Source of the DNA: Chiloscyllium plagiosum
Lineage: Eukaryota
Reading direction: 5' to 3'
NCBI RefSeq assembly: GCF_004010195.1
Contig: NC_057752.1
Span: 3,755,618-3,775,617, forward strand
DNA length: 20,000 nucleotides
In this document: positions 1-20,000 of the stretch, one piece after another
Layout: every line of letters starts with the position of its first letter
Position numbering within the stretch: the stretch's first letter is position 1
The notes under the pieces: model-generated
Database searches by the model: none
Told to the model about the DNA's origin: nothing
Seen by the model: only the letters and a program-made list of their open reading frames with translations
Translations under genes and position numbers: made by a program

Positions 1-102
1 CTTCATTAACAATATGAAGGACAGACCTATTTGATGTTTGCACAATCTTAATTGTGGACAAAATGGCTGCCACAGTTCCCATAACAGCCACATCATTGCA
101 GA

Positions 103-255
103 GAGTGGTGCTGGAAAAGCACAGCAGGTCAGGCAGCATCTGAGGAGCAGGGAAATCGACGTTTTGGGCAAAAGACCTTCATCAGGAATGAGCTGCTGTG
201 CTTTTCCAGCACCACTCTAATCTTGACCTCTGATCTGCAGTCCTCACTTTCACCT
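103..255. mobile_element. Miniature fold-back Penelope-like element (PLE) terminus insertion
   Basis: Perfect 26-bp inverted repeat at 102-127/193-218. Homologous to the PLE 3' termini at 916-1080 and 19794-20000. Flanked by near-identical direct repeats acatcattgcaga (90-102) and acataattgcaga (256-268). Confidence 0.8.
158..185 (-). ncRNA. Degenerate minimal hammerhead ribozyme motif (PLE type)
   Basis: Reverse complement reads CTGATGA-A-GGTC-TTTT-GCCC-AAAA-C-GTC. The conserved GAAA is mutated to AAAA, so it is probably inactive. Confidence 0.55.
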
Positions 256-652
256 ACATAATTGCAGAAGTCTTTTGAGAACACAATGTGGTTTGAGGTA
301 CAACTTGCATCTATATAGAGCCTTATACTGCAAAGCCCGTTACACGCAATAGATTTTATGTTTGCCTGCAGCAACTGTTACACGGATGAAGAGGGGGGAG
401 GCCTACTCCCTCCACCTCACTCTCTCTGTAAACAGTGAGATCAATTGGGATCAATATGTGCCCGGAGGAAGTTAAACTGGATTCACTGCATTTTACCTGC
501 CTGCTTTCTGTCAGGCTCAATGATTCCAGCACACCAGACTGACATCTGGAAGTATTATCAGCATAATTACTACGACGCCTCAGATTGAAGCGCCTAGCAA
601 TATGCTGCCTTTAAATGATCAGGTCAGGCAGCATCCAGGGAACAGGAGAATC

Positions 653-680
653 AACGTTTCGGGCATAAGCCCTTCTTCAG
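653..680 (-). ncRNA. Minimal hammerhead ribozyme motif (PLE type)
   Basis: Reverse complement reads CTGAAGA-A-GGGC-TTAT-GCCC-GAAA-C-GTT: CUGAnGA and GAAA boxes, 4-bp helix II, palindromic ACGU helix III, GUU triplet. Confidence 0.7.
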
Positions 681-956
681 GAATGAGGAAAGTTTGTCCA
701 GCAGGCTAAGATAAAAGTTAGGGAGGAGGGACTTGGGGGAGGGGCGTCGGAAATGTGATAGGTGGAAAGAGGTCAAGGTGAGGGTGATAGGTCAGACTGG
801 GGTGGGGGCGGAGAGGTCGGGAAGAAGATTGCAGGTTAGGAAGGCGGTGCTGAATTCGATGGATTTGACTGAGACAAGGTGGGGGGAGGGGAAATGAGGA
901 AACTGGTGAAACCCGCTACCTTTTACCTTAGCCTGCTGGACACACTTTCCTCATTC

Positions 957-984
957 CTGAAGAAGGGCTTATGCCCGAAACATC
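957..984 (+). ncRNA. Minimal hammerhead ribozyme motif (PLE type)
   Basis: CTGAAGA-A-GGGC-TTAT-GCCC-GAAA-C-ATC. Core boxes are intact; the helix III G is changed to A. Confidence 0.65.
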
Positions 985-1310
985 GATTCTCCTGTTCCCT
1001 GGATGCTGCCTGACCTGCTGCGCTTTTCCAGCAACACATTTTCAGCTCTGATCTCCAGCATCTGCAGACCTCACTTTCTCCTGCCTTTAAATGATGTCCA
1101 GTAATCTGACCGAAACAACAAAAATACTAGCTTCTGAAACTAGCTTGCCATGGTCATGAAATGTTCGAAGTGTGGCACATGAGCAATTCCCTCTGATTAG
1201 GGATTTCATTTGGACAGCCACTTCCATGAATTGCAGGTTTCCCTCTCCATATCTTTTAGTTGTTGCCTCGTTACATATTTGGACATTTAGAAATTACGGT
1301 ATCCACTTCA

Positions 1311-1620
1311 GGGGTGGCACGGTGGCCCAGTGGTTAGCACTGCTGCCTCATACACCAGGGTCCCAGGTTTGATTCCAGCCTTGGGCGACTGTCTGTGTGG
1401 AGTTTGCGCATTCTCCCCGTGTCTGCGTGGGTTTCCTCCGGGTGCTCCGGTTCCCTTCCAAAGATGTGCAACGGTTCAGGTGAACTGGCTGTGCTCAATT
1501 GCCCGTAGTGCTAGGTGCACTAGTCAGAGGGAAATGGGTCTGGGTGGGTTACTCTTCGGAGGGTCAGTGTGGACTGGTTGGGCTGAAGGACCTGTTTCCA
1601 CACTGTAGGGAATCTAATCT
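1311..1620 (+). mobile_element. HE1-type tRNA-derived SINE (V-SINE), near full length
   Basis: A box TGGCCCAGTGG, B box GGTTTGATTCC, V-domain core GTGTGGAGTTTGC..TTCTCCCCGTGTCTGCGTGGGTTTCCTCCGGGTGCTCCGG, CR1-like tail ending (ATCTA)n. Five more copies occur in the window. Confidence 0.92.
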
Positions 1621-1859
1621 CCGAGAGACAGATGAAATCTTACATTTTCCACCTCCCATGTCAATGCGGCCACTAACCACGGGAATGAGCTGTAGTGATA
1701 GGCTTGAATACCTGATTTCAACATTCAACATTGATTTGTGTCACTTTCCTCATTAACGCCTACGTTGTCTTCACAGTGGGGCAACATGATTTGTTCCTTC
1801 GCCAAAACACTGAAGGTGTGAAGGACTTAATGACATAATCTTGCCTGACAGTCCTATGT

Positions 1860-1934
1860 TTTCCAGAGGGACTGCTCCATTCTCGGAGGTGCTGCCTTTT
1901 GAATGAAACTTAAATCAGACATCTTCCTACTCAG
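1860..1934 (+). mobile_element. Old DeuSINE-like fragment (appears to continue at about 2575-2598 and 2701-2845)
   Basis: agagggactgctccattctcggaggtgctgccttt resembles gagggagtgctgcactgtcagaggtgtcaccttt at 2943-2976. Confidence 0.5.
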
Positions 1935-2570
1935 GTCAAGAGTCAAGAGGAGCTTTATTTGCTATTTCTACCATATGCGACTGATACAGCAAAAACCAGA
2001 CAGCGTTCCTCCAGGACCAAGGTGCTACATGGACAGTGCAAACTACACGATCATACACAGGGCAGCATAAAGTGCAAAACACGCAAGACAGCACAGTAAT
2101 TCCTGACACTTCAAGACAACAGGCAGTGGTGTACAAATTAAAGTGTAATTAAAGAATGATAATTAATAAAACATTGTTCTAGCAGCAATTCGTAGTTGTG
2201 CAAAGAGTTTCAGATAGAATAGAGTCTGATCATACAGTGTTAAGGAGCCTGATGGTCCGGGGGAAGAAACTGTTGCATAGTGAGAGACCGAATGCTCTGG
2301 TATCTTCTGCCACATGGCAGGAGGGAATAGAGTTTGAGGGAGGGACGAGTGGGCTCTTCCATAATGCTCTTAGTCTTTTGGAGACAGCGTGTGGTGTAAA
2401 TGTCTGTAATGGAGGGAGGAGAGACCCCGATGATGCTCTCAGCTGCCCTCACTATCCAGCGTAGGGTCTTATGATCTGAGACGGTGCACTTCCCAAACCA
2501 GGCAGTGAAGCAGCAGCTCAGGGTACTCTCAATGAGCCCTCTGTAGAATGTGGTGAGGATGGGAGGGGTG
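1935..2570 (-). mobile_element. Rex1/Babar-clade LINE, 5'-truncated 3' end (post-RT C-terminal domain plus 3' UTR)
   Basis: ORF 2240..2590 encodes FYRGLIESTLSCCFTAWFGKC..LRWIVRAAESIIG..PSITDIYTTRC..LLPCGRRYQSI, typical of the Rex1 C-terminus. Ends with AATAAA followed by CTTGA-type repeats. Confidence 0.85.
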
Positions 2571-2845
2571 GGGGGTGACATTAAGCACATTCAGAGAGGA
2601 GCAATGGGGTGGTTCATCAAGCATACTGGTAGAGTCCCTACCTCTGAGCTAGGAGTCCCAATTTCAAGGCGTGTAACAACATCTCTGAATAGGCTGATCC
2701 TCAGAGAGATTCGAGGAGTTGTCCCAGTGTTCTGCTCAGCATTCCTACCTCAATTAACAATACCAAAAAAAAAAGTGACTGTTCATTCATCCCTTTAATA
2801 CGGGTTGAATCGATGGACAAAATGGCTGCTGCTTTCATCCACGTG

Positions 2846-3215
2846 AGTAAGCATTAGCTCAATGAATCAGAAGGTCCCGGGTTCAAGACCCTTTCTCAAG
2901 TCTTCGGCACATTAATCAAAGCTGACATTTCGGTATCGAACTGAGGGAGTGCTGCACTGTCAGAGGTGTCACCTTTCTGTTGTAATGTTCAAACAAGGTC
3001 CCATTTATCCTGTTGGGGGCCCGATTTGAAGAAGAGCGAAGCAATTCTCCACGATGTCTAGGCCCATATTTATGTCTCAACCAACACCTAACAGAGAACA
3101 TCTGATCATCTGGGGGATGCCACTGCATGCAAAGTGGCTGCCACATTCCCTACATTACAATAGTGGCCACAGTCCATTGGCTGTAAAATGTCCTGAGGTC
3201 ATGAAAGGTGATAGA
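2846..3215 (+). mobile_element. DeuSINE (SacSINE1/AmnSINE1-related Deu domain), decayed
   Basis: B-box-like GGTTCAAGACCC, then GAGGGAGTGCTGCACTGTCAGAGGTG, GAAGAAGAGC, TGGCTGCCACATTCCCTACATTACAA, CATTGGCTGTAAA and TCCTGAGGTCATGAAAGG, in the order recalled for the Deu domain and tail. Confidence 0.7.
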
Positions 3216-4094
3216 AGATGTGATGCACTTATGATGTTTGAGAGATGTGACTGGAAAATCTTTTTCATCATTTCAACCACAGATATTACTATTGGAAAGA
3301 GCAATTACTTGAAAACCTGCTTTTGAAGATTATTGACTAAGCCTCATACCATGCTGCGATGTGAGGTTGGAGATCTAATTGAGGTTCAGAGGTTATCCAG
3401 GGAGCAGGCATTGGTCTGCCTGGGAGTTACAACATCTGACTGGAACATGTCCCAAGCCAGCCCGATTTTTTATTTGTCAGTGCCAGCTGTCCCTCTATTG
3501 GAGGATGACGTCAACTTCGGGTTGCGGGTTCCTGTCGTGGGGTCTTCATTCACTGAGCAGGCTCCTTCTCAATCTGCAGATTTTTGGGCATGTGGGATCG
3601 GTCACCTCACAAGCGAGTGGGATCCAGAGAGCAGGGTTCTTTTCTTTCCTTCTCAGCCGCCATTCTGCCTCATACGGTATTTCGACACAAAGCAAGATGC
3701 AGTTTATTGGACAACTTGCCTCCATTTTGAACAACTGTCCTTCCATCCATTCCTGTCAATGCTGCTGATATTCCCTGTACTGGTGTCACTTGATGAGTTT
3801 CTGGTAATGATGAGATGTAAATGGCAGAAGTAATAGCGAGGATTCAAACAGCAAAGTCCATCAGTGAAAAACAAACACAAATGGTGGCATGAGGCCATTC
3901 CATTTCAAAAATTCATAAAAAATATCTTTATGTTCGTTTCTGTACAATGGCATATGAAGAAACAAACAAACATTGGAGTTTTACTCCATCCAACAAACAA
4001 ACCCTTGGCATTCCTGAATTGTGCGAGACTGTATTTCCATGCACTTGAGACACCAGGAGAGTCTGATAACTGAACGGAGCCTCAGTTAACTTCA

Positions 4095-4215
4095 GCAGAC
4101 AGTGGTCTTTCCCCACCATGCCTTGGCAGCAGCTGCCCCAGGCTTTACTACATCCCTCAGCGTGTCATCCTGGACCTTGGAACGTGCCAGTCTGTAACAC
4201 TCAGTCAAGGCCAAC
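4095..4215 (-). mobile_element. Tx1/L1-group LINE ORF2 C-terminal fragment
   Basis: Translation LTECYRLARSKVQDDTLRDVVKPGAAAAKAWWGKTTV resembles recalled Tx1-like ORF2 ends. Confidence 0.55.
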
Positions 4216-4304
4216 TGAGTAAAAATGTGCAAAAGGTGACAAAGATGTCCCTCAGCTCCTCTGCAAGCTATTGCTTCAGTGGCTGCAGGGGACAGTAGTT
4301 GGAG

Positions 4305-4578
4305 TAGATTAATTAGAGTAGATTCCCTACAGTATGGAAACAGATCCTTTGGTCCAACAAGCCCACACCGATCCTCCGAAGAGCAATCCACCCACCCATT
4401 CCCTACATTTACCCCTGACTAATCCACCTGACACTACGGGCAATTTAGCATGGCCAATTCACCTAACCTGCATATCTTTGGACTGTGGGAGGAAACCGGA
4501 GCACCCGGAGGAATCCCACGCAGACACAGGGAGAATGTGCAAACTCCACACAGACAGTTCCCCAAGGTGGGAATTGAA
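4305..4578 (-). mobile_element. HE1-type SINE, 5'-truncated at the B box
   Basis: Reverse-complement match to 1368-1620, including the V domain and (ATCTA)-like tail. Confidence 0.9.
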
Positions 4579-5289
4579 TACTCTTTATAGTGAGGGATTA
4601 CAGGTTACTCCTTTGAGCAGAATGTTGGTGAAGTGCCTCAATGGTAAACAATTATAAATTCTGTTCTAGACCATAAATTAACTAATGTAATTTGTAGGCT
4701 ATAATAACTAATAGATCGCAGCATCGCCTAATGGATGCAAAACACAATAACAGTGATTAGCTCAGACCTGGCATTATCTCTGCCAAATGATAGTTAAATC
4801 AAATTATCTTGGGTCAGTGTCCTTTTTCGAAGAAACATGAAGTTCCGGTCACATACCGAGCAGTTGTTGCTGTACTCCAGCTTCACTTCATTCTAAACAT
4901 CAGGTTTAAGTACAATAGTAATGACTGAGATGTTTGATTTAAGACATACTAGAACATGCTTCATTGCTTCCAAGTATGCTGCAATAGGAAGAGTAGAGAA
5001 GCTATTATACTTGAACTCTCTGAAACTCTCCCCAATTCTGAGAGTAACATCTAAATACATAGCTCATGGGCAATGGTTCATGAAAGAATTTGTTTCAGAA
5101 GCTTTTAGTCACAAGCACTGCAGGCAAAAATGATTGAAGACGATTGTTTTCTCAGCTTGGTAAACACCATCAATTATTCAATGTCCCACATATTAAATGG
5201 GACCTTTTTTAAAATACACACTGGAACACTGCACAATGTAGGTCTTAAAGTGATAAGTTAAACACAGTTAGATGTAATTTTTCAGTTGC

Positions 5290-5546
5290 ATCATTCCTCA
5301 GGCCATCTGTTGCTGAAACCCTCATCTGCTTTTTTGCTTCCTCTGACCTCAAATATTCCAATACTTTCCCATCATCAATATGCACAAAGTTATCCAAAAC
5401 CCTGTTGTTTACACCTTAACTCACATGAATTTTTATCCATGCATCACTTAAATGGCCACTGGCCTACACTTGGTCCTGGTACAGCAATGCCTCCATTTTA
5501 AAATTCTTAAATTTGTTTGCAAACCCCTGGCTCCTCCTTATCTCTG
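5290..5546 (+). mobile_element. Ancient L2-clade LINE ORF2 C-terminal fragment
   Basis: Frameshifted peptides AETLICFF.SSDLKYSN, IQN, QCLHFKIL and LAPPYL follow the L2 pattern AETLIHAF..SRLDY.N..IQN..FKIL..LAP.YL. Confidence 0.7.
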
Positions 5547-5840
5547 AAATCATAGAGTCATAGAGATGTACAGCATGGAAACAGACCCTTCAGTCCAACC
5601 CGTCCATGCCAACCAGATATCCCAACCCAATCTAGTCCCACCTGCCAGCACCCGGCCCATATCCCTTCAAACCCTTTCTATTCATATACCCATCCAAATG
5701 CCTTTTAAATGTTGCAATTGTACCAGCCTCCACCACATCCTCTGGCAGCTCATTCCATACACGTACCACCCTCTGTGTGAAAAAGTTGCCCCATAGGTCT
5801 CTTTTATATCTTTCTCCTCTCACCCTAAACCTATGCCCTC
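5547..5840 (-). mobile_element. CR1/HER1 LINE 3' end
   Basis: Encodes NFFTQRVVRVWNELPEDVVEAGTIATFKRHLDGYM, followed by a 3' UTR with (GACTCTAT)n tail. Reverse-complement match to 14985-15272. Confidence 0.92.
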
Positions 5841-6267
5841 AAGTTAATATCCTCCTCATTATTTTTTTCTGTTGCACAGGTCTCCAATTGGCGTGCACGA
5901 AACCTCTTGGATGCGCAGCTGAGAGAGAATATTGTCTGTAACCTGCCCCATCCTTCTCCCCTCCTGAAGCCCCTCCATACACTGTGTGCTGTCTGTTCAA
6001 TTTCACTGAGCACTGGCAGCTTGCCAATATTTTGTACAAGCCACCCAACCAGGGAAACAGTTTGTGATGGCACTGGCTGTTAGGGGTGTCTCTTCCAACA
6101 CCTGTCCAGCTTGCACCAGAGTGGAACATTGCCCCGAACTGCTCTTTCAAAGTCTTAACAGAGTCTGTTTTTGCAGCTCCTTCATTGGACTGTGACTTCT
6201 GCTCAGGATTGGACGTTTTATAACAAGCAAGGATGGAACATAAACATAAGATTAAGTCAACTTGCCT

Positions 6268-6383
6268 ATAGTCAGACAGCAGGGAAACAGACCCTTTAGT
6301 CAATCCCAAACTCAACTAGTCCCATCTGCCTGCTCCTGGCCCATATCCCTCCTAACCTTTCTTGTTCATGTCCTTATCCAAAT
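6268..6383 (-). mobile_element. CR1/HER1 LINE 3' tail fragment with internal deletion
   Basis: ggaaacagaccc..ctagtccca.ctgcc..ggcccatatccc is shared with 5577-5700. Confidence 0.75.
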
Positions 6384-6404
6384 TAACCAATAATAACCAC
6401 CACT

Positions 6405-6860
6405 GCACCCGGTACGGAGGAGGGAGGGCAGGTCTGAAGACCTCCTCGTGGGTCTGCTCCTGGGCCTGGCGAAACTGACCATAAACAGGTCCAGGCAGCG
6501 GGCCGTGGAGGGGGTCGTTAGGGCCGACTGCCTGCCCCTCTTCCGCGGTTACGTTAGAGCCCGGGTGTCCTTGGAGAAGGAGCACGCGGTCTCCACCAAC
6601 ACCCTGGAGTTGTTCAGGGAGAGGTGGGTGCCGCAGGGAGTGGAGTGCATTATTTCCCCCTCCAACTCTATGTTGGTTTAATCCCTGCCCTCCCCTTCAC
6701 TGTTTGATCACACAGCATTGCCCTTTGATGTGAAGGGGTGTTTCCTTTCTTCCTGGTGGTGGAAATTGAATAAAGATTTGTACACCTTGTGTCTTTCACT
6801 GGGTCTCACACCTGCACACACACACAACATGGGTACTGGGGAAAAATATATAAAAAAACA
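6405..6860 (+). mobile_element. Tx1-clade LINE 3' end (ORF2 C-terminus plus 3' UTR)
   Basis: GC/CpG-rich ORF LLVGLLLGLAKLTINRSRQRAVEGVVRADCLPLFRGYVRARVSLEKEHAVSTNTLELFRERW..VECI ends at 6681. AATAAA at 6769-6774, then an A-rich end. Confidence 0.75.
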
Positions 6861-7200
6861 GAAGTGTCAGATATCCTGTTCATTCTGACAGCTGGCTCTG
6901 AGAGACTCTCCACATGTAAATAAAGGGTGACTTGGTGACAGAAAAAAAAATAAACACTGCATAGCTGCCAAATCTCATTTGGCTTAAACAATCTAATTTG
7001 ACCTAAACTTTTAAAAGTAGATAAAACTGGATATACTTAATGGAATTAGTCTGATATCATTGATCATAATCTCTTTCTCAACAGTTGCCCAAGAGTGGCA
7101 ATATTACCAGTCTTTAAAGTCTGTGCTGTCTTTCCAAAGCACTGTTTGAGATTGTTAAGTGTTTAAATAAACATGCTTAAACAGCTGGGATAGTTTCAGC

Positions 7201-7266
7201 AGAGAGCCAGCACAGACAATGATAGGCCAAATGGCCTCCTTTTCCACTGTATCATTTTGTGATTCT
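7201..7266 (+). mobile_element. Short CR1-type 3' tail remnant
   Basis: cacagac..gataggccaaatggcctcct..ctgta..gattct stem-loop tail like those of the other CR1/HE1 ends. Confidence 0.55.
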
Positions 7267-7307
7267 TTAAAATCTGGAGCTACTTTCCATTCAGAATCTC
7301 AACCAAA

Positions 7308-7607
7308 AGATTAGATTAGATTCCCTACAGTGTGGAAACAGGCCCTTCGGCCCAACAAGTCCACATTGACCCTCCAAAGAGTAACCCACCCAGACCCATT
7401 TCCTTCTAGCTAATGCACCTAACACTATGGCAATTTAGAATGGCCAATTCACCTGACCTGCACATCTTTGGACTGTGGGAGGAAACCCACACAGGCACAA
7501 AGAGAATGTGTAAACTCTACACAGACAGTCACCCAAGGCTGGGATCAAACCTTAGGTCCCTTGCACTATGAGGCAGCAGTGCTAACCACTGAGCCACCAT
7601 GCCACCC
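7308..7607 (-). mobile_element. HE1-type SINE, near full length
   Basis: Reverse-complement match to 1311-1620. (TAGAT)n tail at 7308; head GGGTGGCATGGTGGCTCAGTGGTTAGC at 7607. Confidence 0.92.
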
Positions 7608-8132
7608 TTAACTTGCAGAATTTTTGATCCTTACAGAAGTTTCTCCTCTTATATTGGATTCTTTATTTGCTGAATAAAAGCCATTCACAATGAAATCATA
7701 TAAGACCAATTAGCCTGAAGCTCTCTTCCAGACAACATGCAGAAACATGAAAGGCTTGTCAAAGTTTGACTTGCTATGCTAATAAGACAATTAGCTCTTC
7801 ACTAGCATTACGAACATCATCAGCTGTGCAGTGTTCTGTTTTTTTTGTCCCTGATTTGAATTGGCAATATAAGTCAATTCTGCATGAGGAGCAGGTATTG
7901 TTCTCAAACAGCACCTTCAGTGTGATTGAACTGTAAAGCGAGTTATCCATCATAGGGACACTTCCTGGCAGAATAAAGAACTCAACCAAAATGTATAGGA
8001 AAATATTGCACATGACTTCAAGTGTACAGCATTCATATTGATAAAAGAAAAGATCACAGGTAAGATTGTGACCTTCATCTCTGTGGCCAGGGGAGGAAGG
8101 TCCAGATGATAGCTATTTAACTATTTAAACTG

Positions 8133-8526
8133 AAAAAAAAAACAAACTGTGGATGCTGGAGATAGATTAGATTACTTACAGTGTGGAAACAGGCCCTTCG
8201 GCCCAACAAATCCACACCGACCCATTCCCCTACACCTAACACTATGGGCAATTTCAGCACAGCCAATTCACCTGGCCTGCACATCTTTGGACTGTGGGAG
8301 GAAACCCACACAGACACGGGGAGAATGTGCAAACTTCAGTCAGTTGCCTGAGTCGGGAATTGAACCCGGGCCTCTGGCGCTGTGAGGCAGTAGTGCTGAC
8401 CACTGTGCCACCGTGCCACCCAACAAAACAAGAACAGAAAGTGCTAGAGAAACTCAGTAGGACTGACAGCACCTGTCGAGAGAGAAACAGAGTTAATGTT
8501 TCAGGTCTAGTGATCCTATGTCAGAG
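8133..8526 (-). mobile_element. PLE 3' terminus (second family) split by an HE1 SINE
   Basis: 8423-8526 is a reverse-complement homologue of 16622-16718, including a degenerate hammerhead-like motif. 8133-8162 (rc atctccagcatccacag) supplies the extreme 3' end seen at 1051-1067. Confidence 0.65.
8163..8421 (-). mobile_element. HE1-type SINE with internal deletions
   Basis: Intact tRNA-like head (rc GGGTGGCACGGTGGCACAGTGG..GGTTCAATTCCC), V domain and (TAGAT)n tail. Confidence 0.92.
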
Positions 8527-8644
8527 CCATTAAAACATCATGCTTGTGTTTCATACCAGAAGTGTATCTTGATTACTCTCAACTCTCCATTATTTTCCAC
8601 TTAGTAAAATTATTGTATGAAGGAGATCTTTCTCATTGCATATG

Positions 8645-10307
8645 GAGAACAGAGGGAGCTTTACTCTATATCTAACCCTGTGCTGTCCCTGTCCTGGTAG
8701 TGTTTGATGGGGAGACAGTGTAGAGAGAGCTTTACTCTATATCTAACCCTGTGCTGTGCCTGTCCTGGCAGTGTTTGATGGGGAGACAGTGTAGATGGAG
8801 CTTTACTCTGTATCAAACCCTGTGCTTTCCCTGTCCTGAGAGTGTTTGATGGGGACGGTGTAGAGGTAGCTTTACTCTATATCTAACCCCGTGCTGTCCC
8901 TGTCCTGGGAGTGTTTGATGGGGATAGTAAAGAGGGAGCTTTACTCTGTACCTAACCCTGTGCTGTCCCCGTCCCTGGCAGTGTTTGATGGGGGACAGTG
9001 TAAAGGGAGCTTTACTCTGTATCTAACCCCGTGTTCTACCTGTCCTGGGAGTGTTTGACAGGGACAGTGTCGAGGAAGCTTCACTCTGTATCTAACCCTG
9101 TGCTGTCCCTGTATCTAACCCCGTGCTTTCCCTGTCCTGTGAGTGTTTGATGGGGACGGTGTAGAGGTAGCTTTACTCTGTATCTAACCCTGTGCTGTCC
9201 CTGTCCTGTGAGTGTTTGATGGGGACGGTGTAGAGGCAGTTTACTCTGTATCTAACCCTGTGCTGTCCCTGTATCTAACCCTGTGCTTTCCCTGTATCTA
9301 ACCCCGTGCTTTCCCTGTCCTGAGAGTGTTTGATGGGGACGGTGTAGAGGAAGCTTTACTCTGTACCTAACCCTGTGCTGTCCCTGTATCTAGCCCCGTG
9401 CTTTCCCTGTCCTGAGAGTGTTTGATGGGGCCGGTGTAGAGGAAGCTTTACTCTGTACCTAACCCTGTGCTGTCCCTGTCCTGAGAGTGTTTGATGGGGA
9501 CGGTGTAGAGGAAGCTTTACTCTGTATCTAACCCTGTGCTGTCCCTGTCCTGAGAGTGTTTGATGGGTACGGTGTAGAGGAAGCTTTACTCTGTATCTAA
9601 CCCTGTGCTGTCCCTGTCCTGTGAGTGTTTGATGGGGACGGTGTAGAGGAAGCTTTACTCTGTATCTAACCCTGTGCTGTCCCTGTACCTAACCGTGTGC
9701 TTTCCCTGTATCTAACCCCGTGCTTTCCCTGTCCTGAGCGTGTTTGATGGGGACGGTGTAGAGGAAGCTTTACTCTGTACCTAACCCTGTGCTGCCCTGT
9801 CCTGAGAGTGTTTGATGGGGACGGTGTAGAGGAAGCTTTACTCTGTATCTAACTCTGTGCTGTCCCTGTATCTAACCCTGTGCTGTCCCTGTCCTGAGAG
9901 TGTTTGATGGGAACAACATAGACTGTCGGTTCAATTCCCATCACCGGCTGAGGCTACCATGAAGGACTCTCCTTCTCAACCTCTCTGGTCACCTGAGGTG
10001 TGGTTGCTCTCAGGTTAAACCACCACGAGCCATCTCTCTCTCATGACATAGCAGCCCTATGGTTTGGTAAAACTATGGCAACTTGACTTGGCCTAGGAGT
10101 GCGTTTGATGGGGGACAATAGAGAGAGCTTTACTCTGTATCTAACCCCGTGCTGTCCCCGTCCTGGGAATGTTTGATGGGGGATAGTGGAGAGGGAGCTT
10201 TACTCTGTATCTAACCCCGTGCTGTCACCGTCCTGGGAATGTTTGATGGGGGATAGTGGAGAGGGAGCTTTACTCTGTATCTAACCCCGTGCTGTCCCTG
10301 CTCCAGG
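8645..10307. repeat. Minisatellite, base unit ~69 bp (CTTTACTCTGTATCTAACCCYGTGCTGTCCCTGTCCTGRGAGTGTTTGATGGGGACRGTGTAGAGGRAG), about 19 units, interrupted at 9912-10092
   Basis: Unit starts at 8659, 8730, 8801, 8870, 8939, 9010, 9079, 9171, ~9240, 9354, 9446, 9515, 9584, 9653, 9768 and 9836, then 10128, 10198 and 10268. Confidence 0.97.
9925..10090 (+). mobile_element. 5'-truncated tRNA-derived SINE-like element (family unassigned) within the minisatellite
   Basis: B box GGTTCAATTCCC near 9928, several stem-loops, and a 3' (ACTTG)n tail at 10081-10090. Confidence 0.55.
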
Positions 10308-10309
10308 AA

Positions 10310-10600: not shown

Positions 10601-11215
10601 CAATTTGAAGGGATGAAAACACGAGATTTCTGATATTGAGAAATCCTTATTCAATTTTGTCCGAGAGTTTTGAATGAGCAGTGACTCCCTTATTTCCTTG
10701 TATTTATTTGTCCTTATTAGTTAATCTCCCCTTATTGCTAGCAACCCCCACTCGATCCTCATCCCAAGATACAAGATGGCGCTGATTCTCGGCATGAAAG
10801 TCAGAGTGGTTACCTGGCAACAGCAGCTCACCATTTGCTTCTTCAGGCCTTCATTCAGCTCCGCCTTGACCTCCATTTCCCTGTCTGCTCCTCGGGCACC
10901 ACCCACTTTCACTCTTCATCCATGCAAATGGGAGCAGCACTAAACCAACAGCCTCATCACATCATCTTAGCTGCTGGCAGACCAACTCACGTACCACTTC
11001 AGCCCTTAAGGACTTCACTTTGGACACCAGGAGCAGATGTCCTGCAAGCTTCTTTCCAGTTCTCTTTGCACACAGGGACACATACACATGCATCTCATGC
11101 ATCACACACAGTGCATCTTCTGGCACTTTGCTCATCCACTTTACAATGACTTAGAGGCTGCCCGCATCTATCATTTGTTTCTTACCTCATTGGATCTTCA
11201 AGCGCAACTTCCAGT

Positions 11216-13455
11216 CAGCACTTCCTCCTCTGTAATATGGACATTTTTCAAGATGTCACCATCTATTTCCCTGCAATCTATACCTTCCATATCCTTTTCC
11301 ACAGTAAACACTGATGCAAAATACTTGTTTAGTATCTCCCCCATTTCCTGCGGCTCCACACAAAGGCCACCTTGCTGATCTTTGAGGGGCCCTATTCTCT
11401 CCCTAGTTACCCTTTTGTCCTTAATGTATTTGTAAAAACCATTTGGATTCTCCTTAACTCTATTTGCCAAAGCTCTCTCATGTCCCATTTTTGCCCTCCT
11501 GATTTCCCTCTTAAGAAAACTCTTACTGGCTTTATAAGGTTTCACCCAATCTATCCTTACATATGCTTCTTTTTTTTAACCAAGCCCTCAATTTCCTTCG
11601 TCATCCAGCATTCCTTATATTACCAGCCTTTCCTTTCACCCCAATGGGAATATACTGTCTCTGGATTCTTGTTATCGCATTTCTGAGTGCTTCCCATTTT
11701 CCAGCCGTCCCTTTACCTGCAAACATCTGCCCCCAGTCAGCTTTTGAAAGTTCTTGGCTTATACCATCAAAATTGGCCTTTCTCCAATTTAGAACTTCAA
11801 CTTTTAGATCTGGTCTATCCTTTTCCATCACTATTTTAAAACGAATAGAATTATGGTCGCTGGCCCCAAAGTGCTACCCCACTGACACCTTAGTCACCTG
11901 CCCTGCCTTATTTCCCAAGAGTAGGTCAAGTTTTGCACCTTCTCTAGTAGGTACATCCACATACTGAATCAGAAAATGTTCTTGGACACACTTAACAAAT
12001 TCCTCTCCATCTAAAGGTTTAGGGGTGACTTGATAGAGGTGTACAAGATGATTAGGGGTTTAGATAGGGTTGACCGTGAGAACCTTTTTCCACGTATGGA
12101 GTAAGGCGTTTGATAAGGTTCCCCATGGTAGGCTACTTCAAAAAATACGGAGGTATGGCATTGAGGGTGAGTTGGAGGTTTGGATTAGGAATTGGCTGGC
12201 TGGAAGAAGACAGAGGGTAGTAGTTGATGGTAAAGGTTCATCTTGGAGTGCAGTTACTAGTGGTGTTCCGCAAGGATCTGTTTTGGGACCATTGCTGTTT
12301 GTCATTTTTATAAATGACCTGGAGGAGGGGCTAGAAGGTTGGGTGAGCAAGTTTGCGATTAATACGAAAGTCGGAGGAGTTGTTGACAGTGAGGAAGATG
12401 TGGCAGGTTACAGCGGGATATAGATAAGCTGCAGAACTGGGCAGAAAGGTGGCAAATGGAGTTCAATGTAGCTAAGGTTGAGGTGATTCACTTTGGTAAG
12501 AGTAACAAAAAGATGGGATACTGGGCTAATGGTCGGATACTTGGTAGTGTGGATGAGCAGAAAGATCTTGGTGTCCATGTACACAAATCTTTGAAAGTTG
12601 CCACCCAGGTAAACAGTGCGGTGAGGAAGGCATATGGCGTACTGGCTTTTATTGGTAGAGGAATTGAGTTCCAGAGTCCTGAGGTCATGTTGCAGTTGTA
12701 TAAGACTCTAGTGCGGCGAACCTTTTTCCACAAATGGAGTCAGCTATTATGAGGGGGCATAGCTTTAAATTAAGGGGGAGTTGGTATAGGACAGATGTTA
12801 GGGGTAGGTTCTTTATTCAGCGAGTCGTGAGTTCATGGAATGCCCTGCCAGTAGCAGTGGTGGACTCTCCCTCTTTATGGGCATTGAAGCGGGCATTGGA
12901 TAGGCATATGGAGGATAGTGGGCTAGTGTAGGTTAGGTGGGCTTGGATCGGCGCAACATCGAGGGCCAAAGGGCCTGTACTGCGCTGTATTCTTATATGT
13001 TCTATGTTCTATAAACCCTTAACACTATGGCAGTCCCAGTCTATGTTTGGAAAGTTAAAATCCCCTACCATAACCACCCTATTATTCTTACAGATAACTG
13101 AGATCTCCTTACAAATTTGTTCCTCAATTTCCCACTGACTACTAGGGGGTCTCTAGTACAATCCCAATAAGGTGATCAGTTCCACCCAAATAACTTCCCT
13201 GGATGTATTTCTGGGAATACCCTCCCTTAGTACAGCTGTAATGCTCTCCCTTATCAAAAACACCACTCCCCCTCCTCTCTTGCCTCCCTTTCTATCCTTC
13301 CTGTAGCATTTGTATCCTGGAACATTAAGCTACCAATCCTGTCCATCCCTTAGCCACATTTCTGTAATTGCTATGATATCCCAGTCCCATGTTCCTAACC
13401 ATGCCCTGAGTTCATCTGTCTTCCCTGTTAGGCCTCTTGCATTGAAATAAATGTA
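11216..13455 (-). mobile_element. CR1/HER1 LINE ORF2 endonuclease/linker region, decayed and interrupted by a younger CR1 at 12016-13011
   Basis: Peptides VLNWRKANFDGISQELSKADW and LKREIRRAKMGHE..KENPNGFYKYIKDKR..IGPLKDQQG..EILNKYFASVFT. The host reads contiguously across ..ccatctaaa|cccttaacact.. once the insert is removed. Confidence 0.9.
12016..13011 (+). mobile_element. Nested, internally rearranged CR1 LINE (RT fragment plus 3' end)
   Basis: [28 protein letters not shown] and FFIQRVVSSWNALP peptides; (TATGTTC)n tail; taaa repeated at 12012-12015 and 13012-13015. Confidence 0.9.
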
Positions 13456-13697
13456 TTAGAGAAGTGAAGAGGAATTCTAAGATTTGTGGCCAATGAAAAA
13501 GGGAATTGCAAAGTCTTCTATCGGACTGAGATCAGATAAACCTCTTCTCTGAGTCTGCAGGCACCTGCCTTCATTGACTCATCACTCCAGTAAGGACTGG
13601 TCCCCTTTGACTTTCAGACATGGCTTTGTGTGCACTATTGCCACATAAGCCATTGGCACATGCTGCAGGTATGACCTCGACAGAGCCTGATGCAATA

Positions 13698-13930
13698 ACC
13701 CATTTCCCTCTGACTAATGCACCTAACACTATGACCAATTTAGCATGGTCAATCCACCTGACCTGCACATCTTTGGACTGTGGGAGGAAACCGGAACACC
13801 CGAAGGGAACCCACGCAGACACGAGGAGAATGTGCAAACTCCACACAGACAGTTGCCCAAGGCAAGAAACGAACCTGGGTCCCAGGCGCTGTGAGGCAGC
13901 GGTGCTAACCACTGAGCCACCGTGCCGCCC
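13698..13930 (-). mobile_element. HE1-type SINE, 3'-truncated
   Basis: Head rc GGGCGGCACGGTGGCTCAGTGGTTAGC..GGTTCGTTTC and V domain present; LINE-derived tail missing. Confidence 0.9.
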
Positions 13931-13933
13931 ATA

Positions 13934-15272
13934 AGTTGTTGGAGGGGATCCTGAGGGACAGGATGTACATGTATTTGGAAAGGCAAAGACTGATTAGGGA
14001 TAGCCAACATGGCTTTGTGCGTGGGAAATCATGTCTCACAAATCTGATTGAGTCTTTTGAAGAAGTAACAAAGAGGACTGATGAGGGCAGAGCAGTAGAC
14101 GTGATCTATATGGACTTCAATAAGGCGTTTGACAAGGTTCCCCATGGGAGACTGGTTAGCAAGGTTGGATCTCATGGAATACAGGGAGAACTAGCCATTT
14201 GGATACAGAACTGGCTCAAATGGAGAAGACAGAGGGTGTTGCTTTTCAGACTGGAGGCCTGTGACTAGTGGAGTGCCACAAGGATCGGTGCTGGGTCCAC
14301 TACTTTTCGGCATTTATATAAATGATTTGGATGTGAACACAGGAGGTATGGTTAGTAAGTTTGCAGATGACACCAAAATTGGAGGTGTAGTGGACAGCGA
14401 AGAAAGTTACCTCAGATTACAACAGGATCTGGACCAGATGGGCCAATGGGCTGAGGAGTGGCAGATGGAGTTTAATTTAGAAAAATGTGAGGTGCTGCAT
14501 TTTGGGAAAGCAAATCTTAGCAGGACTTATACACTTAATGATAAGGTCCTGGGGAGTGTTGATGAACAAAGAGACCTTGGAGTGCAGGTTCATAGCTCCT
14601 TGAAAGTAGAGTCACAGGTAAATAGGATAGTAAAGAAGGCGTTTGGTACGCTTTCCTTTATTGCTCGGAGTATTGAGTACAGGAGTTGGGAGGTCATGTT
14701 GTGGCTGTACAGGACATTGGTTAGGCCACTTTTGGAATATTGCGTACAATTCTGGTCTGCTTCCTATCCAAAGGATGTTGTGAAACTTGAAAGGGTTCAG
14801 AAAAGATTTACAAGAATGTTGCCAGGGTTGGAGGGTTTGAGCTGTAGGGAGAGGCTGGGGCTGTTTTCCCTGGAGCGTCGGAGGCTGAGGGGTGACCTTA
14901 TAGAGGTTTATAAAATCATGAGGAGCATGGATAGGATAAATAGAGAAAGTCTTCTCCCTGGGGTGGGAGAATCCTGAACTAGAGGTTTAGGGTGAGAGGG
15001 GAGAGATATAAAAGAGACCTAAGGGGCAACGTTTTCACGCAGAGGGTGGTACGTGTATGGAATGAGCTGCCAGAGGATGTGGTGGAGGCTGGTACAATTA
15101 CAGCATTTTAGAGGCATTTGGATGGGTATATGAATAGGAAGGGTTTGAAGGGATATGGGCCAGGAGCTGGCAGGTGGGACTAGATTGTGTTGGGATATCT
15201 GGTCAGCATGGATGGGTTGGACCGAAGGGTCTGTTTCTGTGCTGGACATCTGTACGACTCTCTGACTCTATG
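13934..15272 (+). mobile_element. CR1/HER1 LINE, 5'-truncated; reverse transcriptase remnant plus 3' UTR
   Basis: [48 protein letters not shown] and RRLRGDLIEVYK motifs, with a frameshift near 14240 and a premature stop at 14977. (GACTCT) tail. Confidence 0.95.
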
Positions 15273-16151
15273 TATTTTCAGCTCCCCTCTTGTCATGATC
15301 TAACCAAGAAAAGTGTATTAATAATCTTGCCCCACTGTTGTATACTTTGTGACAACTTTTGGACATGTATAAAAATCTCAATGAGACCACCAAAAGTCCA
15401 ATTTGACTGGCTGCTACCAAGAACAAAATTCATCTCCATAATCTGTTAAGAATTTTGTTGGTGAACAAACCCTGTGCCAAACCACTTTCCATGACTGTTT
15501 CCATTATACTTCATCTGCCCTTGTTGTTTCTCACCATGAATATGCCAAACTTGATCACATATCTCCAAAATGCAGTAGAAAGATATCCTTACCTTTGTGC
15601 TACATTTTCAAAACCGCTGCTACCATCTCGTTAAATTCTCAGGCTCAAGGAATACAACTAAGCATGGTGGTGTCTTTTGACATTTAATCACATTGTGATG
15701 TAATCGGTTCAATAAAGAATTTGTATGCTTTGTCCAGAACTCTGGCATTCATTAACAGTAGATTTAATTTTTGCAAGAAGGGATGAGCAAATTACTTTTG
15801 CAATTTCCAGTTAATCCAGACTCCTATCCGGAAAGGTCAATAGTGCTTCTTGAGCCACGGTGAAATACATGATATCCACAACGCAACACAATAATGTCTG
15901 GGGGATCCTGTGAGTTGCAAGTTTACCACGATACTGAACACAAATGATATATCATTCTCTTTGTCCAAATACAATGGTATGTCACAATGGATGACATCAG
16001 TGCCTGTGAAATGACGCAGATCTTGTAATTTCACCAGGGAGAACTACTCTCTTTAAGGAAGGAAACAAATTATAGTCCCTGAATGGAATGTACATAAAGC
16101 TTACATATTCTTTGCACCTATTTTTGACGACTTCTCCAGATTTCCAAATGA

Positions 16152-16718
16152 CACCTCCGTTCTGTCCATAAAAATGACCCGAAGCTTCCAGTTGCCTGCC
16201 AGTTCAGCACATCACCATGTTCCCGTGCCAACATTTCTGTCTCAGGCCTCCAGCAAGGCTCAACGCAAGCCTCAGCTTACATCCAGAACCTCATCTTCCA
16301 CTTGGGGCATTACGTCTTTCAGGACTCAATATCGAGTTTCATCATTTTGGGAGCATGACCGTCTACTCCCATGTGCTTGATTACCCACCCCTCACTCCAG
16401 ATCCTGTCATGAACGTGGGTGGCTTTCAGTCCAGCCAATTCATTTTCACTCACTCATCGCCCCCATTATCACCTATTGAGCTTCTCTGTTTTTTGATGGC
16501 TTCAATCTCTTTGACTCCCTGACTTCATTCGTTTCTCTTACTCTGGTCTATGACTCCACCTCTCCGCTCACTTCTTCCCCCCCACTTTGTAAATCCTTCT
16601 TTTTTCCGAACTGCTATCAGTTCTGTAAGAAGGGTCAGTGGACTCAAAATGTTAACTCTGCATTCTCTCCACAGATGTTGCCAGACCCATTGAGTTTCTC
16701 CAGCAATTTCTGTTTTTG
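16152..16718 (+). mobile_element. Penelope-like element 3' part: GIY-YIG endonuclease C-terminal remnant plus pLTR end
   Basis: Peptides HLRSVHKNDPKLPVACQFSTSPCSRANISVSGL, QNLIFHLG and SGLNIEF match vertebrate PLE endonuclease ends. A pyrimidine-rich UTR follows, with a degenerate hammerhead-like motif at 16623-16653. Confidence 0.85.
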
Positions 16719-16775
16719 GATATTTAGAGACACACCAGACACATCTATCAGTGGATTTCTGGGATTTATTCATTG

Positions 16776-16829
16776 TCAGAGCTGAAAATGTGTTGCTGGA
16801 AAAGTGCAGCAGGTCAGGCAGCATCCAAG
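16776..16829 (-). mobile_element. Short PLE terminus fragment
   Basis: Near-identical to 19825-19878. Confidence 0.8.
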
Positions 16830-17237
16830 TCACCCCAATCCTGCATTTCCACCTGATTAAGAAATCTATAAAAGGTATAACAACTCTGTGAACATTTTAC
16901 AGCTCTTTCATTCCTGTATCACTGCAGAACTCTGAACATTTCTTGTGAAGTCAGCTGGAAACGATCATCTCCTGAAAAGTTTTTTTTCAGAGCAGTAGCC
17001 ATTTGTCCAAAAAGAGAGTGATTACCATGAAACTGAACATCCATCAAAGTCAAAGTTTATCCACCTCCAAGATTTGTGTGCAATCTCATGGTTTAAAAGA
17101 CAATACAGTCTCTGGAGTTTCTAGACTGAATTTCTCAAACTTGATTATGTTTTCTTCTGTGGACTGACTGTCCACCCTCTTAAATTTATCAAATTTACCA
17201 CACCTCATAGGCCCAAGTTAGCCTTTTCGTAAACGTC

Positions 17238-17372
17238 CCTCATTCCTGATGAAGAGCTTTTGCCCGAAACGTCAATTCTCCTGCTCCTCAAATCCTGCCT
17301 GACCTGCTGAGATTTTCCAGTACCACACTATTTGACTCTGATACCCCAGCATCTGCAGTGCTCACTTTCTCC
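17238..17372 (+). mobile_element. Solo PLE terminus insertion
   Basis: Homologous to 949-1082. Flanked by the degenerate direct repeat ccttttcgtaaac (17222-17234) / cctcttcataaac (17371-17383). Confidence 0.8.
17246..17273 (+). ncRNA. Minimal hammerhead ribozyme motif (PLE type)
   Basis: CTGATGA-A-GAGC-TTTT-GCCC-GAAA-C-GTC: canonical CUGAUGA, GAAA and GUC, with one mismatch in helix II. Confidence 0.65.
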
Positions 17373-17655
17373 TCTTCATAAACTTAAATCGCAGTAAAAT
17401 CTCCAATCCTTCTTTGGTGTCGAAGTTTGTTACACCCAGTTCTGAAATTACTTTATTTCTAACTTTACTCCTTCCTGGTAAGGATAAAGCCAATGCCATG
17501 ACCTGGTTCTTCTTGGTTCGAGAACAGACCCAAGTTCACATCTCCACTTATTCTTCCATGCTCATATGGCTCCAATTCTGAAACACCAGGGGATTTCAGA
17601 ACTTCAGAACTCACTTACAGTGAGACCCTACCATTTCACTTCAAAACACTCAACA

Positions 17656-17962
17656 GCTGGTACGATGGCTCAATGGTTAGCACTGCTTCCTCATAGCAAT
17701 AGGGGCCTGGGTTCAATTCCACCCTCGGGTGACTGGCTGTGTGGAGGTTGCACATTCTCCCAGTGTCTGTGTAAGTTTCCTCCCACACACGTACAGGTTA
17801 GGATGGATTGGCCATGCTAAATTGTCCCTAGCGTCTAGGGATATGTAGGTTAGATTGATCATCCTTGGGAAATGCAGGGATGACTCAGGGTGGGATACTC
17901 TTCAAAGTTGGTGTGGACTTGTTAGGTCAAATGGCCCGTTTCCACACTGTCGGGATTCTATG
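17656..17962 (+). mobile_element. Older HE1-type SINE
   Basis: A box TGGCTCAATGG, B box GGTTCAATTCC, V domain, tail TTTCCACACTGT.GGGATTCTATGA. Confidence 0.88.
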
Positions 17963-18049
17963 AAAGCTACCGGGAGCTTTGATCCTGTCAGAAAAGGAAC
18001 TATCTTTTGCTTTCTTTATCTTCTCACCCAAAGAGTTCAAGATTAATCA

Positions 18050-19793
18050 GGGAGGTAATGGTCTAGTGATCCTATTGCTAGACTATTAATCCATTTGCTC
18101 AACTAATGTTCTGAGGACCTGGATTTGAATCCCGTCATGGTAGATAGTGGGAGTTTAATTCAATTTTTTTTTAAAATCTGGAATTAAGAATCTAAGACCA
18201 AGAAACCGCTGTCAATTGTTGGAAAAACCCACCTGGCTCACTAATGCCCTTCAGGGAAGCAAAACTGCCATCCTTACCTGGTCTGGCCTACATGTGACTC
18301 CAGACCCACAGCAATGTGGTTAACTCTCAACTGCCCTCTGAAATGGCCTAGCAAGCCACTCAGTCATATCATTCATTACAAACTCCCAAAGAAATGAAAC
18401 CAGATGGATCACCTGGCATTGATCTAGGCACTGGCAAAGACAGCGGCAGAAACAGCCCCGTTGATCTTGCCAACACCTGGGGACAAGTGCCAAAATTGTG
18501 AGAGCTGTCTCATAGACGAGTCAAGCAACAGCCTGGCATAGTCATACTCACGGAATCATACCTTACAGACAATATCACAGACACCACCATCACCATCCCT
18601 GGATGTGTCCTGTCCCACCGGCAGGACAGACCCAGCAGAGGTAGTGGCACAGTGGGATACAGTCAGAAGGGAGTTACCCTGGGAATCCTCAACATTGACT
18701 CCAGACCCCATGAAGCCTGATGGCTTCAGGTTAAAGATGGGCAAGGAAATCTACTGATAACCATGTACCATCCTCCCTCGGCTGATGAATCGGTACTCCT
18801 CCACGAACCACACTTGGAGGAAGGACTGAGTGTGGCAAAGGCACAAAATGTACTCTGGGTGGGGGGGGTTTCAATATCTACCCTGGGTCTGCAGCAGGTG
18901 GTGAAGGAACCAACAGGAGGGAAGAACATATTTCACCTCATCCTTAGCATTCTGCCAGCTACAGATACATTTGTCTATGACAATATTAGTCAGAGTGACC
19001 ACCGCAGAGTCCTTATGGCAACAAAGTCCCACCTTCACATTGAGAATAACCTCCATCCTGTTGTGTGGCACTATCACTGTGTGCAATGGGACAGACTTCA
19101 AACAGATCTAGCAACTCAAGACTGGGAATCTATGAGGCACTGCAGGCAATTAACAGCAGCAGAATTGTACTCCAATCTATAACCTCATGTCCTGGCATAT
19201 CCCCCACTCAACCATTACCGTCAAGCCAGGGGATCAACCCTGGTTCAATGGAAAGTGTGGGAGGGCATGCCAGGAGCAGCACCAGGTGTACCTGAGGTTG
19301 AGGTGTCAACCTGGTGAAGCTACCAAACAGGACTACTTGCAAGCCAAACAGCATAAGCAGCAAGTGATGGACAGAGCTAAGCAATCCCACAACCAACAGA
19401 TCAGATCTAAGCTCTGCAGTCCTGCCACATCCAGTCGTGAATGGTGGTGGACAATTAAACAACTCACTGGAGGAGGCGGCTCCACAAATATCCCCATCCT
19501 CAATGATGAAAGAGCCCAACACAGCAGTGCAAATGATAAGGCTGAGGCTTTCACAGCAATCTTCAGCCAGAAGTGCTGAGTGGATGATCCATCTCAGCCC
19601 CCTCCCGTGGTCCCCAACATCACAGATACCAGTCTTCAGCCAATCTGATTCACTCCACATGATACCAAGAAACAGTTGGAGACACTGGATACTGCAAGGG
19701 CTAAGGGCCCTGACAACATTCCAGCAAGTGTACTGAAGGCTTGTGCTCCCAACCTTGCCGCTCCCTTAGCCAAGCTGGTCCAGTTCAGTTACA
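18050..19793 (+). mobile_element. CR1-group non-LTR retrotransposon 5' part: tRNA-like head, AP endonuclease and start of RT (decayed)
   Basis: Peptides IVILTESYL, DRPSRGSG, YHPPS, QVVKEPT.GKNI, SDHRRVL, PWFN and GPDNIPASVLKACAPNLAAPLAKL, with multiple frameshifts and stops. Interrupted at 19794 by a PLE. Confidence 0.85.
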
Positions 19794-20000
19794 AGGAGAA
19801 AGTGAGGACTGCAGGTGCTGGAGATCAGAGCTGAAAATGTGTTGCTGGAAAAGCGCAGCAGGCCAGGCAGCATCCAAGGAACAGGAGAATCGACATTTCG
19901 GGCATAAGCCCTTCTTCAGGAATGAGGAAAGTGTGTCCAGCAGGCTAAGATAAAAGGTAGGGAGGAGGGACTTGGGGGAGGGGCGTTGGAAATGCGATAG
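19794..20000 (-). mobile_element. PLE 3' terminus inserted into the LINE; runs off the window edge
   Basis: Reverse-complement match to 916-1082 and direct match to 620-761. Confidence 0.88.
19892..19919 (-). ncRNA. Minimal hammerhead ribozyme motif (PLE type)
   Basis: Reverse complement reads CTGAAGA-A-GGGC-TTAT-GCCC-GAAA-T-GTC. Confidence 0.65.

What the first reader, a model, noticed from the sequence alone, without database searches (positions are those of the whole stretch)
158..19919. Seven minimal hammerhead-ribozyme-like motifs in 20 kb, carried by Penelope-like termini
Seen: five copies of CTGA(A/T)GA-A-[4-bp stem, 4-nt loop]-GAAA-C-GTC or close variants (158-185 -, 653-680 -, 957-984 +, 17246-17273 +, 19892-19919 -). 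Two more degenerate copies of a second family have a longer helix II (about 8494-8523 - and 16623-16653 +). Known: PLE pseudo-LTRs carry minimal type I hammerheads with a very short palindromic helix III that are thought to cleave as dimers. Inference: this genome may hold a very large population of small ribozyme-bearing non-autonomous retroelements. Helix I is weak here (only about 2 bp, UC/GA), so activity is uncertain.
Basis: partly seen in the sequence, partly recalled or inferred. Interest (0 to 1): 0.7.

Follow-up and report, generated by a model that had tools for sequence, protein, structure and literature searches.

The report
Decayed Penelope-element hammerhead stubs
The seven motifs are real but mostly mutated leftovers of a tiny, likely self-cutting RNA motif already described at the ends of Penelope-type jumping genes, so this is an ordinary case of a known feature in a likely shark genome.

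Summary
All seven motifs lie at the stated coordinates, but they belong to six insertions of two Penelope-like element (PLE) families, and they are damaged. None of 7 passes the published minimal-hammerhead descriptor; 3 of 7 pass if helix I may be 2 bp (shuffle mean 0.005). Each of the five family-1 copies carries its own CpG mutation. Across the family the catalytic G12 is mutated as often as its tolerant neighbour (10.4% vs 10.3%), which fits neutral decay. PLE identity is well supported: two arms run into GIY-YIG ORF ends, two insertions are head-to-head inverted with 13-nt target duplications, and copies end at two sites about 40 nt apart. These are truncated ends of autonomous PLEs, not a shown non-autonomous family. 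PLE minimal hammerheads are known (PMC4209133). Cleavage was not tested; no pile of RNA ends was seen. One lead: many copies begin just upstream of the core, at an initiator-like sequence, so they were likely copied from uncut RNA. The scan noted this kind of finding before (284 notes in at least 27 genomes), including in this genome.

The parts
103..192 (-). Family-1 PLE pLTR stub, left arm of an inverted insertion; begins 7 nt upstream of the core and ends at the short 3' end (family position about 1039)
158..185 (-). min-HHR relic: G12>A, one helix II mismatch
193..255 (+). Right arm of the same insertion (3' tail only, no hammerhead), ending at the long 3' end
90..102 (+). Target-site duplication, left copy (12 of 13 identical to 256-268)
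620..915 (-). Family-1 left arm: last codons of the PLE ORF, 3' UTR, hammerhead; ends at family position about 1017
653..680 (-). Best-preserved min-HHR (full core, 4-bp helix II, GUU triplet)
867..914 (-). Remnant similar to the C-terminal end of PLE protein P0055 (10 of 16 residues, E 4.4e-6 in a small local search)
916..1082 (+). Family-1 right arm with hammerhead and full tail, joined 5'-to-5' to the left arm
957..984 (+). min-HHR relic, CG>CA in the helix III palindrome; initiator-like YYANWYY at 951-957
607..619 (+). Target-site duplication, left copy (13 of 13 identical to 1083-1095; 15 of 15 with 2 nt of overlap)
8429..8523 (-). Old family-2 pLTR stub; motif 8494-8523 with broken box 1; no similarity to the 16623 copy upstream of the motif
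16152..16354 (+). Frameshifted C-terminal part of a PLE GIY-YIG endonuclease domain
16152..16718 (+). Family-2 5'-truncated PLE: ORF end, 3' UTR, hammerhead, 3' end at 16716-16718
16619..16657 (+). Family-2 min-HHR relic: 4-bp helix I, 5-bp helix II, extra T in box 1, G12>A; YYANWYY at 16617-16623
16776..16827 (-).
17237..17373 (+). Family-1 solo stub with motif 17246-17273; begins 8-10 nt upstream of the core; possible decayed target duplication (11 of 14)
19794..20000 (-). Family-1 copy with motif 19892-19919 and full tail; runs off the window

Best explanation
The seven motifs are damaged copies of the minimal hammerhead in the 3' terminal repeat (pLTR) of two Penelope-like retroelement families, likely left by truncated insertions that were copied from uncut element RNA and have likely decayed neutrally since. 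Shown here: the repeats, their two fixed 3' ends, the inverted arms, the target duplications, the ORF remnants and the CpG-biased changes. Inferred from the Anolis PLE work (PMC11167929): the GIY-YIG endonuclease nicks the target, reverse transcription starts inside the RNA at one of two sites about 40 nt apart, runs through the intact hammerhead and usually stops soon after; priming on the second strand gives the head-to-head arm. Inferred from PMC4209133 and PMC11167929: in an intact element the motif would cut after GUC/GUU only with help (a second copy pairing through the ACGU palindrome, or the PLE protein). Most genomic copies would no longer cut.
For: ORF link: 16152-16304 matches P0002 (62%, E 1.3e-13), whose longer relatives carry RVT_1 and GIY-YIG; 867-914 matches the end of P0055, an RT+GIY-YIG protein. 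Anatomy: two head-to-head insertions with 13/13 and 12/13 duplications; loose ends pile at 1081-1083 and 1037-1042 in three runs, like the 30-40 bp tail of PMC8557442 and PMC11167929. Motif: family majority at 982 is G (68-83%), giving GAAACGUC; the tool's loose-end consensus for family 2 shows an intact box 1 and G12. Families differ by compensatory changes (helix I pair 1 C-G vs U-A; an extra U-A pair in helix II). The same core in other DNA has paired helix I flanks (80, 81, 68, 47 of 90 vs 53, 55, 40, 33 shuffled) and 9 of 121 such loci match the PLE protein. Decay: 5 of 9 private changes fall on 6 of 40 CpG columns (P=0.006); G12>A equals C11.1>T in 3 of 3 runs with data.
Against: No full-length element or RT region is in the window and no genome was available. 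0 of 7 pass the published descriptor; predicted helix I pairing is at most 0.10 in monomers. The family-1 ORF link is short (16 residues). Pfam does not recognise P0002 or the window fragment directly, and P0055's domains score below the curated cut-offs. The left arm of the 620-1082 insertion ends at neither common 3' end. The shuffle control for helix I ignores relatedness. The read-based mutation rates are limited to reads at least 82% alike and, for contigs, are depth-weighted.
Confidence: 0.9

Rival explanations
1. The short copies are a separate non-autonomous family (SINE-like or retrozyme-like) that is transcribed, cut by its hammerhead, perhaps circularised, and mobilised in trans.
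For: Most copies are short: RNA-read depth at 940-946 is 18% of that at 961-967. Head-to-tail joints 1082>955 occur in 12 contigs of X1 and 1 of X15. A preprint reports tandem retrozymes in one chondrichthyan genome (10.64898/2026.07.22.740005).
Against: No tandem pair in the window; 12 contigs among 78,327 laid; 2 of 7 arms reach the ORF; 96% of laid RNA reads run on into unlike sequence and lie in both orientations, as expected for passengers in host transcripts; no pile of RNA ends.
Confidence: 0.07
2. Some genomic copies have been kept as working ribozymes in host transcripts.
For: 3,528 reads of an RNA run (X21) lie on the family-1 stretch; helix II folds with P>0.97 in three copies.
Against: Every family-1 copy has a CpG hit in the motif; G12 is not protected and is changed more often in RNA reads (23%) than in DNA contigs (10%); no end pile at 984/985.
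Confidence: 0.02
3. The motif is a chance likeness or a protein-binding/promoter element with no ribozyme ancestry.
For: No Rfam hit; weak helix I and III; an initiator-like sequence overlaps helix I.
Against: Both catalytic boxes, the unpaired base before G10.1, the G10.1-C11.1 pair and the CG palindrome match the consensus of PMC4209133 Fig. S3; compensatory changes between families; the Anolis PLE motif cleaves and is rescued by C3G/G8C.
Confidence: 0.01

Closest known systems
Minimal hammerheads (min-HHR) in pLTRs of metazoan PLEs (Cervera and De la Pena 2014, PMC4209133; main text parts 1-2 of 4 and supplementary file 2 read, file 1 not available)
   Same: CUGANGA + one unpaired base + G-C-closed helix II + GAAA-CG-UH, no helix III beyond the palindrome; mostly single, dispersed, truncated copies; several families per genome.
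   Different: No cartilaginous fish among the 56 motifs of Fig. S3; family 1 has a U.U at the third pair of helix I and so fails the paper's descriptor.
PAc Poseidon element of Anolis carolinensis (PMC11167929; passages and second half of main text read)
   Same: Two 3' ends a tail apart; both target strands extended; uncut RNA is the main insertion substrate; no RNA-seq ends at the cut site.
   Different: No ORF start could be placed in this pLTR; the related proteins carry a CX2-5CxxC linker (P0055), which PMC8557442 gives for Neptune/Nematis, not Poseidon.
EN+ PLE insertion anatomy (PMC3846280, PMC8557442; passages read)
   Same: Head-to-head inverted 5'-truncated pLTR, tail at one end only (103-255), short target duplication.
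   Different: Duplications are 13 nt here against 8-10 nt in Adineta; the insertions here hold almost no ORF.
Non-LTR retrozymes (bioRxiv 10.64898/2026.07.22.740005; parts 1 and 3 of 5 and passages read, supplements not seen)
   Same: Type I hammerhead in short PLE-related sequence.
   Different: Retrozymes are defined by tandem units each with a hammerhead; the window has solo and inverted copies only.

Membership tests
PLE min-HHR (PMC4209133) | Box 1 CUGANGA and box 2 GAAANNUH around a 3-7 bp helix II | tested here: met
   3 of 7 copies (653-, 957+, 19892-); family majorities intact; 4 of 7 copies fail
PLE min-HHR (PMC4209133) | Helix I of 3-7 bp | tested here: inconclusive
   Not met in family 1 (2 bp + U.U + A-U; 5-12% of reads have the pairing A at 987); met by the 16623 copy (4 bp), whose core is damaged; 0 of 7 pass the whole descriptor
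PLE min-HHR (PMC4209133) | Unpaired base between positions 9 and 10.1, G10.1-C11.1 pair, palindromic 15.2-16.2 | tested here: met
   Majority of five family-1 copies; exact in 653-
PLE min-HHR (PMC4209133) | Location in the terminal repeat downstream of an RT+GIY-YIG ORF | tested here: met
   About 270 nt after the GIY-YIG end in family 2; about 230 nt after a short ORF-end match in family 1
PLE min-HHR (PMC4209133) | Self-cleavage after position 17 (dimer or protein-assisted) | not testable with these tools
   No pile of RNA ends, but a poly(A) single-cell library is a poor test
EN+ Penelope-like elements | Single ORF with RT and C-terminal GIY-YIG | tested here: inconclusive
   Only the endonuclease end is in the window; its homologues carry both domains
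EN+ Penelope-like elements | Optional 30-40 nt 3' tail, inverted 5'-truncated copy, short target duplication | tested here: met
Neptune/Nematis clade | CX2-5CxxC linker between RT and EN | tested here: inconclusive
   Present in homologue P0055; that region is not in the window and no tree against named clades was built
Non-LTR retrozymes | Tandem head-to-tail units each with a complete hammerhead | tested here: not met
   None in the window; rare head-to-tail joints elsewhere (12 contigs)
Non-LTR retrozymes | Unit-length circular RNA | not testable with these tools
   Libraries at hand cannot show it

The most novel reading that the evidence does not exclude
In both families the element RNA starts at the first base of helix I (an initiator-like YYANWYY with its A four bases before the core), so the hammerhead is the very front of the transcript, and the many short stubs are complete DNA copies of that uncut front end, from the internal priming site back to the cap. 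The hammerhead would then act as a conditional trimmer of the RNA's first ~30 nt, or as a protein-binding fold, and not as the cutter that makes the insertion template.
Probability: 0.45. Interest if true: 0.45.

Novelty: new member of a known kind. Interest (0 to 1): 0.18.

Why it matters
As a discovery it is minor: minimal hammerheads in PLE ends have been known since 2014, and these copies are mostly decayed. The value is as material. The role of the PLE hammerhead is still open (PMC8557442 and PMC11167929 both say so), and very large young families let one map where copies begin and end relative to the cut site. That tests directly whether cut or uncut RNA is the template.

Tried and rejected
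Whole-genome count: no genome is held, so abundance rests on run data. Rfam: no hammerhead family at E<=10. RNA ends at the cut site: none listed; run X22 laid 0 reads and is no test; no RNA holder of the unique DNA was listed, which says nothing on expression. A small depth step near 985-987 in X21 is confounded by mismatches of the reference at 982 and 984 and was not counted as a cleavage footprint. ORF start in the pLTR tail: an open frame from 1003 was compared with 267 PLE-like proteins; only one weak, evidently chance hit. Shark relatives among the 121 metagenome loci: none beyond the core motif. A general 5' boundary at helix I in other animals: only 18 of 73 motifs in families of three or more had 12 nt or less of shared upstream sequence, so not supported there. 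Monomer folding does not favour the hammerhead fold (helix I P<=0.10; the 16623 copy folds otherwise). Pfam on the window fragment gave only a chance ACT hit. Literature: searches (0 papers) listed no paper describing shark PLE hammerheads or a 5' boundary at the motif; the library lacks most subscription papers, Repbase/Dfam could not be searched, and the preprint's supplements were not seen.
Full report
Observation. All seven stretches are at the stated coordinates. An exact scan for CTGANGA-stem-GAAACGTH finds 1 (653-680 -); with one mismatch it finds 3, against 0 in 30 shuffles. I coded the published descriptor (PMC4209133 Fig. S7). With helix I of 3 bp or more it finds 0 of 7. With 2 bp it finds 653-, 957+ and 19892-, against a mean of 0.005 in 200 shuffles, none reaching 3. 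The other four have a changed catalytic base, a broken box or a helix II mismatch. Rfam gave no hammerhead match. So the likeness is real and beyond chance, but the copies are damaged.

What carries them. Five motifs belong to one repeat family and two to another. Upstream of the family-2 motif at 16623, 16152-16354 is a frameshifted coding remnant. It matches protein P0002 at 62% over 53 residues. P0002's longer relatives carry reverse transcriptase and GIY-YIG domains, the PLE ORF layout. For family 1, the 5' end of the arm 620-915 matches the last residues of P0055 (10 of 16), an RT+GIY-YIG protein that its source names as from Chiloscyllium punctatum. This link is short. That the window is shark DNA is my inference from this match and from recalled repeat types. 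P0055 has a CX2-5CxxC linker, which PMC8557442 gives for Neptune and Nematis; I built no tree, so the clade is only a lead.

Insertion anatomy. 620-1082 is one insertion: two arms joined 5'-to-5' at 915/916 and flanked by a 13 of 13 duplication. 103-255 has the same build, with a 12 of 13 duplication; its left arm stops at the short 3' end and its right arm has the full tail. 17237-17373 is a solo stub with a possible decayed duplication (11 of 14). Laying public runs on 905-1095 put 78,327 contigs of DNA run X1, 8,444 of X15 and 3,528 reads of RNA run X21 on it; X22 laid none. Loose ends pile at 1081-1083 and at 1037-1042. Family 2 ends pile at 16716-16718, and many copies continue into a shared further stretch (16,310 contigs of X1, 16,594 of X11). 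Contig counts are not copy numbers, and X1 may be the source of the assembly. Two ends about 40 nt apart, head-to-head inversion and short duplications are the published PLE pattern (PMC3846280, PMC8557442, PMC11167929). Three of the 121 metagenome loci with the same core also hold head-to-head pairs.

The motif at family level. The majority base at 982 is G in 68-83%, so family 1 reads GAAACGUC. The tool's loose-end consensus for family 2 shows an intact box 1 and G12, and the extra T at 16626 is left out in other copies. Between families, helix I pair 1 changes C-G to U-A, pair 3 changes U.U to G-C, and helix II gains a U-A pair (read). In 90 distinct motifs from other DNA (122 rows from 119 of 121 loci; two loci lacked flank), helix I positions 1-4 pair in 80, 81, 68 and 47 cases, against 53, 55, 40 and 33 after shuffling; 0 of 2000 shuffles reached these values, but relatedness is not controlled. 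9 of the 121 loci match the PLE protein. Against activity as a monomer: predicted helix I pairing is at most 0.10, and only 5-12% of family-1 reads or contig depth carry the base that would close the U.U.

Decay. Each of the five family-1 copies has one CpG transition in the 40-nt motif, each at a different position. Five of nine private changes fall on six CpG columns (P=0.006; four of 13 changes were set aside as shared subfamily marks). The two arms of one insertion differ at 5 of 102 positions, two of them CpG changes in the motif. If genomic copies were kept for cutting, G12>A should be rarer than C11.1>T, which leaves a G.U pair. They are about equal: 10.4 vs 10.3% (X1), 4.8 vs 4.5% (X15), 23.4 vs 21.1% (X21). 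96% of laid RNA reads run on into unlike sequence, and no pile of ends was listed.

How it most likely works. Steps shown: ends, arms, duplications, ORF remnants, decay. Steps inferred from the Anolis element: nicking by the GIY-YIG domain, internal priming at two sites, extension on both strands, uncut RNA as template, protein-assisted cleavage. From PMC4209133: monomers did not cut and dimers cut weakly. The preprint found cleavage in 1 of 9 Xenopus dimers. I put 0.9 on truncated, decayed PLE ends with a known minimal hammerhead.

The one lead. Depth rises steeply just upstream of the core: X21 depth is 230 at 940-946 and 1,272 at 961-967. X1 loose ends are listed at 953 (293 contigs), and head-to-tail joints land at 951-955. 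Family-2 copies keep the few bases before the core and then diverge (668 contigs in X1, 643 in X11). Both families have YYANWYY with its A four bases before the core (the consensus is recalled). Three of seven window copies begin within about 10 nt of the core. D. virilis Penelope has an internal TATA-less promoter (PMC2377424, passages). Against: depth keeps rising to 1009; alignment clipping or subfamilies with other upstream sequence could give the same step; two of the window's starts are at -7 and -8 to -10, not -4; YYANWYY is degenerate; other animals' loci showed no such boundary (18 of 73). I noted the clustering before looking at earlier notes. The reading as a capped transcript start came from note e1-8159453, and many notes repeat it; these are not independent evidence.

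Verdict. A correct catch of a known kind. Sharks are absent from the 2014 alignment, and searches listed no dedicated paper, but one chondrichthyan genome is in the 2026 preprint. New member of a known kind; interest 0.18.

Noticed in passing
window 8651-9892 and 10103-10298: Minisatellite of 69-70 nt units with an internal 23-nt subunit that is itself duplicated; no hammerhead core in it.
   Followed up: partly
window 1311-1620 (-), 4312-4580, 7310-7608, 8161-8422, 13698-13931, 17658-17960: Several copies of one abundant ~300-nt repeat, likely a tRNA-derived shark SINE (label recalled, not tested).
   Followed up: no
window 13930-15265 (+), 12080-12990 (+), 5550-5832 (-): LINE reverse-transcriptase remnants (260-codon open stretch with a FADD motif); 5550-5832 is a 92% inverted copy of the 3' end at 14983-15265. 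The piece at about 11990-13010 seems nested in another LINE remnant.
   Followed up: partly
window 18400-19793: Degenerate LINE-like coding remnant whose end is cut by the family-1 PLE copy at 19794.
   Followed up: no
window 16776-16827 (-): Family-1 tail fragment without hammerhead, 57 nt after the end of the family-2 element and in opposite orientation.
   Followed up: partly
L040 1501-1581, L046 1501-1589, L114 301-381: Head-to-head hammerhead pairs only 25-31 nt apart with a palindromic junction in metagenome contigs.
   Followed up: partly
window 953-1082, run X1: Head-to-tail joints (1082>955, 12 contigs) suggest rare tandem units of about 130 nt elsewhere in the genome, which could allow dimer cleavage.
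   Followed up: no
window 6392-6961: GC-rich piece that an earlier scan note calls Tx1-like with an LTR segment; not checked.
   Followed up: no
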